A DNA stretch of 11,964 nucleotides from Octopus sinensis (taxonomy: Eukaryota), in assembly GCF_006345805.1 (NCBI RefSeq), contig NW_021826832.1, positions 1 through 11,964 on the forward strand, in the 5' to 3' direction. Of this stretch, positions 1 through 11,964 are shown piece after piece (the stretch's first letter is position 1; each line of letters begins with the position of its first letter). The position numbers and the translations under genes are program-made. A model generated the notes under the pieces. It worked only from the letters and a program-made list of their open reading frames with translations, searched no databases and was not told where the DNA came from.

Positions 1-201
1 CGTGCGAAATGCTTACCGGTATTTCGTCTGCCGCTACGTTCTGAGTTCAAATTCCGCCGCGATTGACTTTGCCTTTCATCCTTTCGGGGTCGATTAAACA
101 AGTACCAGTTACGCATTGGGGTCGATATAATCAACTTGATTTGTGTGTCTGTCCTTGTTTGTCCCCTCTGTGTGTAGCCCCTTGTGGGTAGTAAAGAAAT
201 A
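1..201 (+). mobile_element. tRNA-derived SINE, octopus-type family A, copy 1 (5' end cut by window edge)
   Basis: Pol III B-box-like GTTCAAATTCC at 45-55, central core GCCTTTCATCCTTTCGGGGTCGAT, 3' end GTAAAGAAATA. The same sequence recurs at 202-364, 364-456 and, inverted, at 9432-9632. Family recognised from memory of octopus SINEs. Confidence 0.8.
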
Positions 202-364
202 GGTATTTCCTCTGCCGCTACCTTTTGAGTTCAAATTCCGCCGAGTTTGACATTGCCTTTCATCTTTTCGGGGTCGATTAAATAAGTATCAGTTACGTAC
301 CGTGATCGATGCAATCGACTTTATCCCTTTGTCTGTCCTTGTTTGTCCCTTCTATGTTTAGCCC
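202..364 (+). mobile_element. SINE family A, tandem copy 2 (5'-truncated)
   Basis: Starts at GGTATTTC directly after the end of copy 1. Aligns by eye to about 18-180 with scattered substitutions. Confidence 0.8.
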
Positions 365-456
365 GCCGGGCGAAATGCTTAGCTGTATTTCGTCTGTCTT
401 TACGTTGAGTTCAAATTCTGCCGAGGTCGACTTTGCATGTCATCCTTTCGGGGTCG
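364..456 (+). mobile_element. SINE family A, tandem copy 3 (3'-truncated)
   Basis: CGCCGGGCGAAATGCTTAG...GAGTTCAAATTC...CATCCTTTCGGGGTCG; similarity stops abruptly at 456. Confidence 0.75.
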
Positions 457-1060
457 CGCGTTACTGACTTGCGGAGCTTTGTCAAACTTTTATTTTAACG
501 TGTAGGACGGATCCGGCTATTGTCAGAGTCCATTGTGAACAACACCCTCCCCTTTATTTGTCCTGGAAGCGAGGGCAATTTTTTCTCTATCTAGTGACTA
601 TGGCAAAGTAGGTTTTGTGGTGGACTTGATTGAAAGAGTTGAACAAGGGCACCTTTCTCTTTGGCGATGGCCTTATTGATTTTTCAGGTCCTACATGAAA
701 AGGAAAGTGAGACTGGAGTTGGAGGTAGTCAGCCAGTAAGTTCGTTGAACGGTGGGTGAATGTAGCAAGGATGATCGTGTGACTGGGCCTGCAATAACTG
801 AGAATATGCTGAGGATCCGTTGATGCTAAGGGACCCAAAGTGCGTGCGGTCTATTTGGTCACCTTACGGTGGAACTACCCGCTGTTGGGGAAGCATATTG
901 TTGAAATAATTGGAAGTAATGTGCAAAAAGTTTTATAAAGTAGGTAAGGGTAATTAATCAGGTCAGTGTCATATTTACATATTAGTAAAGAAGAGGGAGG
1001 GGATTAGCTAGCATGGGATACAGATAATCTATGATCAGGTGATAGGAAGCACAACCATAT

Positions 1061-1344: not shown

Positions 1345-1697
1345 CTCTTTACTTTTTTACTCTTTTACTTGTTTCAGTCATTTGACTGCGGCAATGGTGG
1401 AGCACCGCCTTTAGTCGAGCAAATCGACCCCGGGACTTATTCTTTGTAAGCCCAGTACTTATTCTATCGCTAAGTGACGGGGACGTAAATACACCAGCAT
1501 CGGGAGACAAACACAGACACATACACACATACACACACATACATATACACATATACATATATACGACGGGATTCTTTCAGTTTCCATCTATCAAATTCAC
1601 TCACAAGGCTTTGGTCGGCCCGAGGCTATAGTAGAAGACACTTGCCCAAGGTGCCACGCAGTGGGACTGAACCCGGAACCATGTGGTTGGTAAGCAA
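1345..1697 (-). mobile_element. tRNA-derived SINE, octopus-type family B (5'-truncated)
   Basis: On the minus strand: B-box-like GGTTCAGTCCC (1663-1673), then CACCTTGGGCAAGTGTCTT, an internal (TG/TA)n tract (about 1510-1563) and a short AAAGAGT-type tandem tail (1345-1370). A diverged relative lies at 7476-7640. Confidence 0.8.
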
Positions 1698-4502: not shown

Positions 4503-4530
4503 TATATATACATATATATATATATATATA
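4503..4530. repeat. (TA)n left flank of the hammerhead array
   Basis: Seen directly; abuts the array. Confidence 0.9.
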
Positions 4531-4649
4531 TTAACAATTAAGGAACGGCCATAATAGGCCATTCACCCACTAGAAATAACAGCCCAAGCTTCTACCGCAA
4601 ATAAAGATTAATTCCGTAAACAGGAGAAATTAAAAAACATTTACCCTGT

Positions 4650-4754
4650 ATTTCTTGTACGGTAACCGTTTCATCCGCTGTTTAATGTAAAACTAACCTG
4701 ATTAAATTAAATCAAGCCAATCTTCCATAAGCCCTCGGATTCTTCAGCAGAAAT
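4650..4754 (-). ncRNA. Type I hammerhead ribozyme, copy 1 (core intact; 1-nt deletions in stems I and III)
   Basis: Reverse complement has CTGAAGA (4741-4747), stem II ATCCG/CGGAT, and GAAACGGTTACCGTA followed by CAAGAAAT. Confidence 0.7.
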
Positions 4755-5132
4755 AGCTAAGTCGGAACAGATATTTACACGAGGCATACACAATCTTGCC
4801 AAGTCATATCTGACCTAAAATTTTCAAATCGTCGCACTCGCGCCAAATTTATCGGCAGCAAATAAATATCAGCCGTCGATTCCATTACGAATTAACCAAA
4901 AAATTCATAATTAATCAATATAGGGTGGCAAGGAAAATTTTGTAGAATTTTATTGCACCAGCGGCCCAGTGGGAAAAAATTAAATAGTCATAGACCATTT
5001 TTAAGTTCAACATTAACATTAAGGAACGGCCATAATAGGCCATTCACCCACTAGAAATAACAGCCAAAGCTTCTACCGCAAATAAAGATTAATTCCGTAA
5101 ACATGAGAAAATTAAAAAACATTTACCCTGTA

Positions 5133-5239
5133 ATTTCTTGTACGGTATACCGTTTCATCCGCTGTTTAATGGTAAACTAACCTGATTAAATTAAATCAAG
5201 CCAATCTTCCATAAGCCCTCGGATTCTTCAGCAAGAAAT
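5133..5239 (-). ncRNA. Type I hammerhead ribozyme, copy 2 (intact)
   Basis: Reverse complement of 6073-6179. Predicted cleavage between 5141 and 5140. Confidence 0.85.
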
Positions 5240-5621
5240 AGCTCAAGTCGGAACAGATATTTACACGAGGCATACCCAATCTTGCCAAGTCAATATCTGA
5301 CCTAAAATTTTCAAATCGTCGCACTCGCGCCAAATTTATCGGCAGCAAATAATATCAGCCGTCGATTCCATACGGAATTAACCAAAAAATTCATAATTAA
5401 TCAATATAGGGTGGCAAGGAAAATTTTGTAGAATTTTATTGCCACCAGCGGCCCAGTGGGAAAAAATTAAATAGTCATAGACCATTTTTAAGTTCAACAT
5501 TAACAATTAAGGAACGGCCATAATAGGCCATTCACCCACTAGAAAACATAACAGCCAACTTCTACCGCAAATAAAGATTAATTCCGTAAACAGAGAAAAT
5601 TAAAAAAACATTTACCCTGTA

Positions 5622-5726
5622 ATTTCTTGTACGGTATACCGTTTCATCCGCTGTTTAATGGTAAACTAACCTGATTAATTAAATCAAGCCATCTTCCATA
5701 AGCCCTCGGATTCTTCAGCAAGAAAT
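5622..5726 (-). ncRNA. Type I hammerhead ribozyme, copy 3 (core intact)
   Basis: Same motif with two 1-nt deletions in the stem II extension. Predicted cleavage between 5630 and 5629. Confidence 0.8.
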
Positions 5727-6072
5727 AGCTCAAGTCGGAACAGATATTTACACGAGGCATACCCAATCTTGCCAAGTCAATATCTGACCTAAAATTTTCA
5801 AATCGTCGCACTCGCGCCAATTTATCGGCAGCAAATAAATATCAGCCGTCGATTCCATTACGGAATTAACCAAAAAATTCATAATTAATCAATATAGGGT
5901 GGCAAGGAAAATTTTGTAGAATTTTATTGCCACCAGCGGCCCAGTGGGAAAAAATTAAATAGTCATAGACCGATAAATTTGGCGCGAGTGCGACGATTTG
6001 AAAATTTTAGGTCAGATATTGACTTGGCAAGATTGGGTATGCCTCGTGTAAATATCTGTTCCGACTTGAGCT

Positions 6073-6179
6073 ATTTCTTGCTGAAGAATCCGAGGGCTTA
6101 TGGAAGATTGGCTTGATTTAATTTAATCAGGTTAGTTTACCATTAAACAGCGGATGAAACGGTATACCGTACAAGAAAT
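6073..6179 (+). ncRNA. Type I hammerhead ribozyme, copy 4 (intact)
   Basis: Stem I ATTTCTTG (6073-6080) pairs with CAAGAAAT (6172-6179). Core CTGAAGA at 6081-6087. Stem II ATCCG (6088-6092) pairs with CGGAT (6151-6155). GAAA at 6156-6159. Stem III ACGG-TATA-CCGT. GUA cleavage triplet at 6169-6171. Confidence 0.88.
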
Positions 6180-6559
6180 TACAGGTAAATGTTTTTTAAT
6201 TTTCTCCTGTTTACGGAATTATCTTTATTTGCGGTAGAAGCTTTGGCTGTTATTTCTAGTGGGTGAATGGCCTATTATGGCCGTTCCTTAATTGTTAATG
6301 TTGAACTTAAAAATGGCTATGACTATTTAATTTTTTCCCACTGGGCCGCTGGTGGCAATAAAATTCTACAAAATTTTCCTTGCCACCCTATATTGATTAA
6401 TTATGAATTTTTTGGTTAATTCCGTAATGGAATCGACGGCTGATATTTATTTGCTGCCGATAAATTTTGCGCGAGTGCGACGATTTGAAAATTTTAGGTC
6501 AGATATTGACTTGGCAAGATTGGGTATGCCTCGTGTAAATATCTGTTCCGACTTGAGCT

Positions 6560-6663
6560 ATTTCTTGCGGAATCCGAGGGCTTATGGAAGATTGGCTTGA
6601 TTTAATTTAATCAGGTTAGTTTACCATTAAACAGCGGATGAAACGGTATACCGTACAAGAAAT
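6560..6663 (+). ncRNA. Hammerhead copy 5 with damaged core (CGGA in place of CTGAAGA)
   Basis: All stems are present but the catalytic core is 3 nt shorter at 6568-6571. This is either a mutation or a sequencing error. Confidence 0.6.
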
Positions 6664-6888
6664 TACAGGGTAAATGTTTTTTAATTTTCTCCTGTTTACG
6701 GAATTAATCTTTATTTGCGGTAGAAGCTTTGGCTGTTATTTCTAGTGGGTGAATGGCCTATTATGGCCGTTCCTTAATTGTTAATGTTGAACTTAAAAAT
6801 GGTCTATGACTATTTAATTTTTTCCCACTGGGCCGCTGGTGGCATAAAATTCTACAAAATTTTCCTTGCCACCCTATATTGATTAATT

Positions 6889-6898
6889 ATATATATAT

Positions 6899-6944
<46 letters not shown>

Positions 6945-6955
6945 TACCTATATAT
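6889..6955. repeat. (TA)n right flank of the hammerhead array
   Basis: Seen directly. Confidence 0.9.
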
Positions 6956-7475
6956 AGTGTATATGTTTTTACTGTGGTAGCTTAACTTCAATTTAATTAA
7001 CTCTAAAACTGATAGGCGTCGAAAACGCAACGAATCAATCCTACTTTCCGGTATCATCTATGTGTACCTATCTTCATTTATCACCGTCGTAGCTGCCCTC
7101 CTAGATATTTGGCTGCAATTTGCGGGATGCTAACCAGACGTATAGAACAGCATTTCCCATACTTTTGTTTGTTCATCAATTCTTTGATCAGAGGACAAAT
7201 CTTGCAAAACATCTGACTGAGTCTCCCACGGTGCTATTCAATTGCTTCATCATGAATTAAATACATCTGTAATTTCCATTAACCCAAGAGCCCCATCATT
7301 TGATTGGACAATTAATATATTAGACTAGGTCGTACAGTGGTTGCTCGGTTGTTATTTAAGCATTCTTTATTTTTTATCTGCCATTGTTTATTTGAAATAG
7401 CTACCTTATGCACATATAGGTTGAACTCGTTTCCAACCCAGTTGTGTATTGTATGAGCGTGAAGGTCACGCAACA

Positions 7476-10261: not shown

Positions 10262-11964
10262 TTCCCTAATGAACAGAAAGGATGTAAACGTGGATCCTAC
10301 GGCTGTAAAGACCACTACTCATCAATAAGATGATCTTAGAAGATTGTCACAAACGACACAAAAACTTATCAATAGCCTGGATAGACTATAAAAAAGGCTT
10401 TGATAGCCTACCACATAGCTGATTAGGAAATGCCTTGAAATGTATAAGATAGCACCAACTCTGCGAAACTTCTTGACTGTAAGTATGAGATCATGGAGAA
10501 CCACACTAACTCTGAACAGTGACAGTGAATCCCTAAATGCTGGTGATGTAAAATTTCGTGTGGCATTTTCCAGGGTGACTCACTGTCACCACTCCTCTTT
10601 TTTTTATCCTTAATACCTCTCTCAAAGCTGCTCCAATGACGCGCAGTACGGGTATAAAATGTTTGAAATAAAAATTAATCATCTCTTTTACATGGAATGA
10701 TTTAAAGCTTTTTGCAAAAAATGATCAACAACTCAAGGGCGTTACTAGCGATAGTCAAAAACATTCAGTGACGACATCAGAATGCAATCGGCCCTCGATA
10801 AATGTGCCAAAGGCTACCTTTATCAAGGAAAAATGACAGAAACATCTAACGTTAACCTTGACCAACAGAATGTCATAAAAGAACTAGACCCAGCGGAGAG
10901 CTACAAGTACCTAGGGGTAATGTGAGGGAACGGAATAGGCATTCAGAGATGAAGGAAAGGATCAGGAGAGAATGCTATCGACGAGTGAGAGCAATACTCA
11001 AGACAGAGCTGAATGCAAGAAACAGGATCGAAGCAATCGATGCATTAGCTATACCAGTCGTGACTTACAGTTTCAATATTGTTAACTGGTCAATTACTGA
11101 AATATGTCAGCTCGACAGAAATATAAGGAAACTGTTGACAATGCATAGAATGCACCACCCTAAGGCAGATACAGAACGACTCTATCTGCCAAGAAAAGAG
11201 GGAGGCCGTGGTCTTTTGCAACTGGCAATAACAATGAGATTGCTACAATTGGCCTAGACACCTACCTAAAAACTCTGAGGACTGGATGTTAAAACTTGTC
11301 TCAAAACATGAAAACAAGAAGCATCATACTCAGTCACAAAAACAGGCAAAGGAATATCTAAGTGAATTCCGAATACAACCAATTTCGGAATTAGAGATAG
11401 ACATACAAGAACAAGCACAGAAAAAGCTAGGCGCATGAAAACCCGTGCCAAAACTGCGGCCTTAGATATTCTGAATAATAAATGGCAAGAAAAACCTCTC
11501 TATGGCAAATACCCAAAGAGAGCGAATAATGCGATATCGACAAAGCCCTGACCCTCAATGGCTAATGGCCTCTGGCTTAAATCTGAAACAGAGGGGTTTA
11601 TCATAGCAGCTTAAGATCAATGCCCTACCACAAGAAACTACCAGGCCAACATATTAAAGATCAGAAGCAGTCCAACGTGTCGTGTATGCAAGTAACAAAA
11701 TGAAACCAAGTGCAGTCTTCTAGCGCCTACAGAGTATCTCACAGGCCGATAGAGCTGCACAATATATTCACTGGGTAATCTGTAAAAACCTGGATTTGCC
11801 CCATGAAAAACTGGTGGGAACACAAACCACCCCCAGTGCTTGAAAATGACCACATCTCTCACTCCTCTGGAACTTCACCATTCAAACTGACAGGAAGATA
11901 GATGCAAATAGGCAGACATCATATTGAAAGACTTCAACAAAAGAACATGCCTCCTCATTGATAT
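10262..11964 (+). mobile_element. Dong/R4-clade non-LTR retrotransposon (RT + zinc knuckle + restriction-like endonuclease); 5'-truncated, frameshifted, continues past the window
   Basis: Manual translation across frameshifts gives EQKGCKRGSYGCKD, AWIDYKKGFDSLPH, GIFQGDSLSPLLF (10562), HLFYM(D)DLKLFA (about 10680), LDKCAK, YKYLGV (10902), HPKADTERLYLPRKEGGRGL (in ORF 10922-11257), YGKYP, SETEGFIIAA*DQCLPTRNY, CRVC (11678), and LWNFTIQTDRKIDANR(P)DII..LID. This motif order is characteristic of R4/Dong elements. Confidence 0.92.

What the first reader, a model, noticed from the sequence alone, without database searches (positions are those of the whole stretch)
6073..6179. Atypical hammerhead: stem II extended by a 58-nt insert forming a G-U-rich hairpin
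Seen: between ATCCG and CGGAT lies a 58-nt insert in which 6100-6118 pairs with 6125-6143 (18 pairs, one A-A mismatch). Five pairs are G-U (6106/6137, 6108/6135, 6110/6133, 6111/6132, 6113/6130). These would be A-C mismatches on the other strand, so the fold is polarised to the hammerhead strand, which supports selection on RNA structure. The first pair of stem II is A-U rather than the usual G-C. Inference: the internal loop (6093-6099 / 6144-6150) may supply the tertiary contact with stem I. A stem II this long could escape standard motif searches.
Basis: partly seen in the sequence, partly recalled or inferred. Interest (0 to 1): 0.75.

Follow-up and report, generated by a model that had tools for sequence, protein, structure and literature searches.

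The report
Long-armed pseudoknotted hammerhead in Penelope retrozyme
This is a self-cutting RNA motif with an unusually long side arm, carried by a 490-base non-coding jumping repeat present in thousands of copies in this animal genome; the loop in that arm likely braces the motif by pairing with a neighbouring strand, and the broken ends of genomic copies suggest that it cuts in living cells, though cutting has not been tested at the bench.

Summary
The motif is a type I hammerhead in a ~490-nt non-coding unit, here in a two-armed tandem/inverted insertion in (TA)n (4530-6890), with about 4,000 pattern matches genome-wide: a Penelope-type non-autonomous element (non-LTR retrozyme). The distal hairpin is conserved and varies mostly by pair-keeping single changes, but one insertion lacks it, so it looks like a scaffold, not a catalytic part. 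Arm ends pile up 2-15 nt after GUA (23 of 162, 4.9 expected), a likely trace of cleavage in vivo. The G·U argument has a rival: runs guessed to be RNA show A>G excess on this strand, so editing may create G·U pairs. No autonomous partner was found; nothing is bench-tested. The scan noted similar long-stem-II retrozymes in other genomes before. Verdict: new variant of a known kind.

The parts
4530..6890 (.). Whole insertion of the ~490-nt unit: two arms head to head, between (TA)n runs 4503-4531 and 6888-6956
4530..5968 (-). Left arm, about three units; its RNA-sense 3' end (4530) is the fixed end E1, about 128 nt after the cleavage site
5970..6890 (+). Right arm, about 1.9 units; its 3' end (6890) is the fixed end E2, about 233 nt after the cleavage site
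6068..6072 (+). GAGCU directly 5' of stem I: 5' strand of the predicted pseudoknot
6073..6080 (+). Stem I 5' strand (pairs with 6172-6179)
6081..6087 (+). Catalytic core C3-A9 (CUGAAGA)
   Evidence: sequence
6088..6092 (+). Proximal stem II 5' strand (pairs with 6151-6155); first pair A-U, labile across subfamilies
6093..6099 (+). Internal loop 5' strand; GGCUU 6095-6099 is the 3' strand of the predicted pseudoknot, always starting 7 nt after A9
6100..6143 (+). Distal hairpin of stem II: 18 pairs, five G·U, one A·A, 6-nt loop
6144..6150 (+). Internal loop 3' strand, A-rich; no partner found
6156..6171 (+). G12-A14, then self-complementary stem III 6159-6170 (loop included; fits a double hammerhead), then GUA 6169-6171 with predicted cleavage after 6171
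6172..6179 (+). Stem I 3' strand, first bases of the predicted cleaved monomer
5127..5244 (-). Second intact copy of the ribozyme region
5616..5731 (-). Third copy, two 1-nt gaps in the hairpin
4644..4759 (-). Fourth copy, several small gaps
6555..6669 (+). Fifth copy, core short of 3 nt (assembly error or decay)

Best explanation
This is a type I hammerhead motif inside a ~490-nt protein-free repeat with thousands of (TA)n-targeted copies, likely a non-autonomous Penelope-like element (non-LTR retrozyme), whose long stem II likely works as a two-part arm: an internal loop predicted to brace the ribozyme by a 4-5 bp pseudoknot, and a distal hairpin that likely only closes and positions that loop. 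Inferred cycle: tandem units are transcribed; stem II folds first (very stable), GGCUU 6095-6099 pairs with GAGCU 6068-6072 and holds stems I and II side by side; cleavage after GUA 6171 is partial and probably helped by pairing of two palindromic stems III (double hammerhead); released monomers are ligated to circles; a Neptune-type RT/GIY-YIG protein in trans nicks (TA)n and starts copying at two fixed sites (E1, E2), giving two head-to-head arms. Shown here: the fold's covariation, copy number, insertion anatomy, fixed ends, the pile-up of arm ends at the cut site, variants shared by all units of an insertion. Inferred: cleavage, circles, the activating role of the pseudoknot, the dimer, the identity of the mobilising protein.
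For: Copy number: 3,185 matches against 107 control plus 902 against 0. Covariation of stems I, II (proximal), III: 42 double-change cells against 11.7 shuffled, 95% of cells paired against 33-47% for slid registers (related sequences inflate this). Pseudoknot: 4-5 pairs possible in 25 of 25 representatives, register kept next to stem I also where stem I is 7 bp; A-U in 4 and G-C in 20 of 24 distinct rows at 6069/6098 (alignment anchored on the motif); four haplotypes, all fully paired, make up 86 of 92 insertion-level entries; G6096 and C6097 have only 13 and 22 exceptions genome-wide; chance of a 4-bp match at this place 0.12, 5-bp 0.04. Stem III is self-complementary over 12 of 12 positions in 25 of 25 representatives although its loop changes UAUA to UGCA; duplex -18.8 against hairpin -2.9 kcal/mol. 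Anatomy: 68 of 95 insertions with both flanks are head to head, 64 of 68 have one E1 and one E2 end, 160 of 163 3' ends lie at these two sites, 152 of 163 have TA-rich flanks; tandem/inverted copies with an optional tail and two RT start sites are PLE hallmarks (PMC8557442, PMC11167929). Cut-site trace: 23 of 162 arm 5' ends lie 2-15 nt after GUA, 4.9 expected, p 1e-9; 6 in the 15 nt before it. 78 variants are carried by all units of an insertion, 58 of them on both arms, as expected from copying one monomer. Intact Neptune-like ORFs of 775-781 aa exist in the genome.
Against: No cleavage assay. The 10.1-11.1 pair is unpaired in 36 of 98 insertions called, so activity may be low. Nearest-neighbour folding gives stem I a probability of only 0.02-0.06 (pseudoknots and tertiary contacts are not modelled). 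The pseudoknot rests on one double change (probably one evolutionary event) and a few one-sided changes; the 35 substitutions at 6096/6097 showed no compensation; with the 3' strand slid by +1, 75% of cells still pair and the covariation score is the same; the helix is weak (-3.8 kcal/mol). Other long-stem-II hammerheads in this genome show no obvious like pseudoknot (by eye). The distal hairpin has 0 of 19 pairs with a double change against the commonest pair, A·C in 4 and 2 insertions at two pairs, and is missing its 3' strand in both hammerheads of L241. 15 of 18 arms ending just after the cut site are longer than one unit, so most internal hammerheads of a template were uncut or religated. 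No autonomous partner shares sequence with the unit among 50 GIY-YIG loci. In the anole PLE, hammerhead cleavage was not needed for insertion in vitro (PMC11167929).
Confidence: 0.62

Rival explanations
1. The pseudoknot is a brake, not a brace: pairing of the internal loop with the strand beside stem I attenuates the single hammerhead (for instance in the circular monomer), and cleavage goes through the double hammerhead in multimers, as recalled for the satellite RNA of cereal yellow dwarf virus-RPV.
For: That satellite's (+) hammerhead has an atypical long helix II of segments split by internal loops (PMC1636495, Table 1 note); titles in reference lists say that an alternative tertiary structure attenuates its cleavage and that it needs a double hammerhead (the loop-to-bulge pairing itself is recalled). 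Here stem III is a conserved 12-nt palindrome, the first stem II pair is weak and most arms ending at the cut site span uncut internal hammerheads.
Against: Pseudoknots between the stem I and stem II sides activate about 40% of natural hammerheads (PMC3088659). The spacing from A9 to the pseudoknot strand is constant (7 nt), which suits a geometric brace. Stem III here has 4 bp as a monomer, more than typical dimer-only motifs (PMC4209133).
Confidence: 0.15
2. The G·U-rich hairpin is a passenger shaped by editing: ADAR converts A to I in A-U pairs of the retrozyme RNA, reverse transcription fixes them as G, and strand-polarised G·U pairs pile up with little selection on the hairpin.
For: Three runs guessed to be RNA show 9, 6 and 5 places with A>G against 2, 0 and 1 with T>C; four DNA-like or unlabelled runs show 6/5, 5/5, 5/5, 4/3; Fisher p 0.011, places not independent and thresholds unequal. 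A>G at 6085, 6088, 6258 and 6426 is seen in those runs while 0 of 94-102 insertions carry G there. A6134 (UAG context, in the hairpin) reads G at 6-12% in three studies and is G in some genomic lineages. Template-level variants: A>G 16, T>C 10, p 0.046; unit-private changes 29 and 37. L241 moved without the hairpin.
Against: The runs are contigs, RNA is a guess, and no DNA of the same individual was laid. A>T against T>A is as skewed (11 and 3), G>A is as common (17), and p 0.046 is one of six tests. Pair-keeping changes include U>C, C>U and G>A, which editing does not make; propagated variants keep pairing far more often than single ones; diversity in the hairpin is 0.040 against 0.077 elsewhere (16 unit types).
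Confidence: 0.1
3. The distal hairpin is kept for a job other than catalysis, as a binding site for the mobilising RT or a host dsRNA-binding protein; the hammerhead is protein-assisted or marginal.
For: Its sequence, loop included, is more conserved than the catalytic stems although structure alone would allow double changes. The anole PLE hammerhead cleaves only when the PLE protein is present (PMC11167929).
Against: Other stretches of the unit are as conserved or more (diversity 0.02-0.04 at unit positions 67-198 and 265-330) and lie nearer the RT start sites. L241 transposed without it. Unrelated families in the genome have long stems II of different sequence.
Confidence: 0.1
4. The arrays are satellite DNA spread by DNA-level events and the fold is a relic or chance.
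For: Tandem units 95-100% alike; unequal crossover is proposed for retrozyme arrays (10.64898/2026.07.22.740005).
Against: Dispersed insertions with two fixed 3' ends, inversion junctions, TA targets, ends at the cut site and covariation.
Confidence: 0.03

Closest known systems
Metazoan non-LTR retrozymes (Cervera and de la Pena 2020, PMC7229834, passages seen; Li et al. 2026, bioRxiv 10.64898/2026.07.22.740005, parts 1-3 of 5 read)
   Same: Protein-free tandem units of a few hundred bases, one type I hammerhead each, low GC (36-38%), strongly self-paired as a circle (z -6.5), thousands of copies, PLEs in the same genome.
   Different: Stem II spans 68 nt instead of about 4 bp plus a loop; predicted Watson-Crick pseudoknot from an internal loop instead of the usual loop 1-loop 2 contact; A-U, A·C, A·A or U·U at 10.1-11.1; unit of 490 nt, above the 170-400 nt of the circles described; regular two-armed insertions with two fixed ends.
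Penelope-like elements, Neptune clade (structure from PMC8557442, passages; mechanism from PMC11167929, parts 1-2 of 4; hammerheads from PMC4209133, passages)
   Same: Tandem plus inverted 5'-truncated copies, optional tail at one end, two start sites, microsatellite targets, palindromic stem III.
   Different: No ORF; tail about 105 nt instead of 30-40; full hammerhead with 8-bp stem I, not the minimal form; G10.1-C11.1, called highly conserved in PLE minimal hammerheads, is absent; no partner element found.
Pseudoknotted hammerheads (Perreault et al. 2011, PMC3088659, passages)
   Same: Base pairs between the stem I side and the stem II side stand in for loop-loop contacts, in all three types; U·U at 10.1-11.1 is tolerated.
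   Different: In the passages seen the pseudoknots use terminal loops or tails with short stems II; here the strand is one side of an internal loop capped by an 18-bp hairpin. Not the PK hammerhead of PMC11300833, in which the pseudoknot replaces helix II.
[quoted passage not shown] 1999, titles only, content recalled)
   Same: Long helix II with internal loops; alternative tertiary pairing; double-hammerhead cleavage.
   Different: Plant virus satellite with helices of 5, 4 and 4 bp; here a genomic retroelement with 5 plus 18 bp; whether the pairing activates or attenuates is open.

Membership tests
Type I hammerhead ribozyme | Core C3-U4-G5-A6-N7-G8-A9, G12-A13-A14, A15.1-U16.1, H17 | tested here: met
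   6081-6087, 6156-6159, 6170-6171
Type I hammerhead ribozyme | Three helices, stem I open, supported by covariation | tested here: met
   double changes in 5 of 8, 2 of 5 and 1 of 4 pairs
Type I hammerhead ribozyme | R10.1-Y11.1 pair, usually G-C | tested here: inconclusive
   A-U in this copy (purine-pyrimidine pair), but A·C, A·A or U·U in 36 of 98 insertions called; never G-C
Type I hammerhead ribozyme | Reaches the Rfam Hammerhead_1 gathering score | tested here: not met
   no hit for this copy, 21.4-21.5 of 34 bits for two others; the 45-position model has no room for the insert
Type I hammerhead ribozyme | [quoted passage not shown] | tested here: inconclusive
   pseudoknot supported by one double and several one-sided changes; not probed
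Type I hammerhead ribozyme | Self-cleavage after H17 | not testable with these tools
   indirect only: arm ends pile up after GUA
Non-LTR retrozyme | Tandem non-coding units, each with a type I hammerhead | tested here: met
   95 complete units, mostly 485-492 nt; a 66-codon frame is not kept across subfamilies
Non-LTR retrozyme | Expressed as linear and circular monomer RNA | tested here: inconclusive
   contigs of runs guessed to be RNA cover the unit but cannot tell circles from tandem copies; shared variants point to a monomer template
Non-autonomous Penelope-like element | Tandem/inverted insertions, tail at one end, microsatellite target | tested here: met
Non-autonomous Penelope-like element | Sequence shared with the pLTR of an autonomous PLE | tested here: inconclusive
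   none among 50 loci drawn from the 150 scored of 5,029 GIY-YIG candidates; search far from complete
PK hammerhead (PMC11300833) | Pseudoknot replaces helix II | tested here: not met
   helix II is an ordinary nested, covarying stem

The most novel reading that the evidence does not exclude
Host A-to-I editing acts on this retrozyme's RNA and its marks are written back into the genome by reverse transcription, so that editing both builds the G·U pairs of the long arm and tunes the ribozyme: editing A10.1 opposite C11.1 would make an I-C pair like the canonical G-C, while editing in the GAAA box would switch it off. The long stem II would then be an editing-sensing arm on a pseudoknot-braced hammerhead.
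Probability: 0.15. Interest if true: 0.8.

Novelty: new variant of a known kind. Interest (0 to 1): 0.48.

Why it matters
Hammerhead surveys use short stem II descriptors; here a long-stem family has about 4,000 matches while a short-stem pattern with a like stem III gives 269 against 71 control, so a major share of animal retrozymes may be missed. The element offers a natural test of whether an internal-loop pseudoknot activates or brakes a type I hammerhead, with subfamilies supplying ready-made compensatory variants. Its insertions keep a footprint of cleavage in vivo and of two-start Penelope copying, both poorly documented. If editing marks are fixed by retrotransposition, G·U polarity cannot be read as proof of selection on structure in such elements.

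Tried and rejected
Rfam: only miRNA look-alikes from inverted repeats and microsatellites, all under gathering scores. A 66-codon frame across the ribozyme is cut to 7-40 codons in other subfamilies: not a gene. Autonomous partner: blastn, short-word blastn and a covariance model found nothing related in 50 GIY-YIG loci; PLE fragments near 8 unit-bearing loci look like neighbours in the same microsatellites. I first took the long-stem hammerheads beside Neptune ORFs for their own; self-comparison showed they belong to other inserted elements. Extra compensatory changes in the pseudoknot were sought among genome-wide variants at 6096 and 6097: none; those 24 loci were left out of the haplotype count. 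First count of junction ends held an artefact at unit positions 1-2 from the linear reference; redone with two rotations. No RNA holder listed on record. My first pairing check had an index error, corrected. A sequence look-up in the scan's notes found no look-alike. Three papers (Miller and Silver 1991; Song and Miller 2004; Lunse et al. 2017) were not held, so the satellite RNA precedent rests on a table note, titles and recall. Searches that found no paper describing a type I hammerhead with an internal-loop pseudoknot and long capped stem II in an animal retrozyme, or any cephalopod retrozyme. Supplements were not read; those of PMC7229834, PMC3088659 and PMC8557442 (which lists half cores 35-50 nt apart) may hold such cases.

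Full report
Observation. The core (6081-6087, 6156-6159), an 8-bp stem I and GUA 6169-6171 make a type I hammerhead. The insert folds far better on this strand (z -4.5) than on the other (z -1.6). Rfam misses this copy.

Context. The motif lies in a ~490-nt unit repeated three times on the - strand and about twice on the + strand (4530-6890) between (TA)n runs. G000 is a 2.7-Gb animal genome ('octopus-like' is my recall from its repeats and the wording of note e1-8807256). Patterns for the long-stem motif give 3,185 matches against 107 control and a further 902 against 0 with a base other than U at 11.1. I fetched stretches mainly from the first places listed on C1-C3, so the sample is not random. 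Of 95 insertions with both flanks, 68 are two arms head to head; 64 of these have one end about 125-136 nt and the other about 232-245 nt after the cleavage site; 160 of 163 RNA-sense 3' ends fall at these two sites and 152 of 163 abut TA-rich DNA. Tandem plus inverted copies, a tail at one end and microsatellite targets are described for Penelope-like elements (PMC8557442, passages), and the tail was traced to two RT start sites (PMC11167929, parts 1-2 of 4). Tandem non-coding units with type I hammerheads are non-LTR retrozymes (PMC7229834, passages), proposed to be non-autonomous PLE derivatives (10.64898/2026.07.22.740005, parts 1-3 of 5). Intact RT plus C-terminal GIY-YIG frames of 775-781 aa are present ('Neptune' is my label from the cysteine linker), but none of 50 such loci shares sequence with the unit.

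Structure. On 25 representatives picked by hand from 160 copies to span subfamilies and avoid indel errors, stems I, proximal II and III covary: 5 of 8, 2 of 5 and 1 of 4 pairs show double changes. Stem III stays self-complementary over all 12 positions in 25 of 25 while its loop changes, which makes sense in a double hammerhead (duplex -18.8, hairpin -2.9 kcal/mol; dimers described in PMC4209133 and PMC6765202, passages). The first stem II pair is A-U in 62, A·C in 26, A·A in 6 and U·U in 4 of 98 insertions called, so it is loosely held; U·U there is known to be tolerated (PMC3088659).

The internal loop. Its 5' strand GGCUU (6095-6099) is complementary to GAGCU (6068-6072), directly 5' of stem I. 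In 25 of 25 representatives 4-5 pairs are possible, the loop strand starts 7 nt after A9, and the partner stays next to stem I when stem I is 7 bp. Pair 6069/6098 is A-U in the window's subfamily and G-C in the others. Over 231 indel-free copies in 88 insertions four fully paired haplotypes make up 86 of 92 entries, among them an independent C-G plus G·U version. G6096 and C6097 have 13 and 22 exceptions in the genome, none compensated. Against: one double change only, a 0.12 chance of four pairs at this place, a slid register that scores as well, and near-palindromic strands that could pair between molecules. I put the pseudoknot at about 0.7. Pseudoknots brace about 40% of hammerheads (PMC3088659), but a long helix II with internal loops and attenuating tertiary pairing is on record for a plant satellite RNA (PMC1636495 Table 1 note and reference titles; details recalled), so brace or brake is open.

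The distal hairpin. Diversity is 0.040 against 0.077 in the rest of the unit, though other stretches are as conserved. No pair shows a double change against its commonest form; 6108/6135 does occur as U·G (60), U-A (25) and C-G (3). Variant pair types seen in two or more insertions keep pairing 9 times and break it twice; those in single insertions keep once and break 8 times (p 0.005). Yet L241 lacks the 3' strand in both of its hammerheads. So the hairpin is under selection for pairing but is likely a scaffold, not part of catalysis.

Traces of activity. Arm 5' ends at inversion junctions pile up 2-15 nt after GUA: 23 of 162 resolved ends (4 unresolved), 4.9 expected; 6 lie in the 15 nt before it, and the strong distal hairpin causes no such pile on its 3' side. 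RT stalling at the folded junction is a rival reading. 15 of 18 such arms are longer than one unit, so cleavage is partial or the template is a reopened circle. 78 variants are shared by all units of an insertion, 58 across both arms, as expected if each insertion is copied from one monomer; gene conversion is a weaker alternative.

Editing. In contigs of three runs guessed to be RNA (three studies) places with A>G outnumber T>C 20 to 3 (a fourth run had one contig), against 20 to 18 in four DNA-like or unlabelled runs (p 0.011 with unequal thresholds and dependent places). Several sites (6085, 6088, 6258, 6426) never carry G in 94-102 insertions of G000, and one loose end carries a cluster of A>G across the GAAA box. 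A6134 in the hairpin reads G at 6-12%. Editing of repeat dsRNA is general in animals (PMC5625713, listing only). The genomic signal is slight (A>G 16, T>C 10; other skews as large), and no matched DNA was laid, so it stays a lead.

Novelty. The class is known; the arm is not described in the papers found (searches; supplements unread), where long helix II means 6-8 bp (PMC13725137, passages). Other unrelated elements in this genome have stems II of 26-61 nt, and the scan noted similar long-stem-II, two-armed retrozymes in other genomes (unchecked notes, not support). Verdict: real, likely functional, a new variant of a known kind; interest 0.48.

Noticed in passing
L117:6151-7571: An unrelated two-armed repeat in (TA)n with a 51-nt stem II hammerhead; one of its ends resembles this family's E2 end (CACCCT...ATTAATTAT), hinting at a shared mobilising protein.
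   Followed up: partly
L113:6772-7885, L115:584 and 6519, L117:6037, L129:1415 and 4667: Further hammerheads with stems II of 26-61 nt, several with an internal loop and a distal hairpin, one with A-U as first pair: long stem II recurs in this genome.
   Followed up: partly
L120:5132-5175: The 3' region of a Neptune-like element holds a compact hammerhead with U·U at 10.1-11.1 and a 4-nt palindromic stem III; the abundant L115-type family shows no CUGANGA core within its bounds.
   Followed up: partly
L241:1335-2307: Insertion whose two hammerheads both lack the 3' strand of the distal hairpin (stem II 47 nt): a natural deletion test.
   Followed up: partly
L236-L239: Older subfamily with GUC instead of GUA at the cut site and an A·C mismatch in the hairpin.
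   Followed up: no
window 6183-6240: A splice-donor-like CAG/GGUAAAU just after the ribozyme followed by a pyrimidine tract and UAG; the acceptor is not kept in other subfamilies. PLEs are known to keep introns.
   Followed up: no
window 10300-11964: Frameshifted remnant of a non-LTR retrotransposon RT region on the + strand (GDSLSP and LYLPRKEGGRGL motifs; clade label recalled, no Pfam hit for 10862-11257).
   Followed up: partly
window 18-460: 184-nt tandem repeat, about two and a half copies, 84% alike.
   Followed up: no
window 4530-6890: Units differ almost only by 1-3 nt gaps, as expected from long-read assembly error in this short contig; the broken core at 6568-6571 may be such an error.
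   Followed up: partly
window 1370-1500 and 1565-1690: Fragments of abundant SINE-like repeats between microsatellites (identity recalled, not tested).
   Followed up: no
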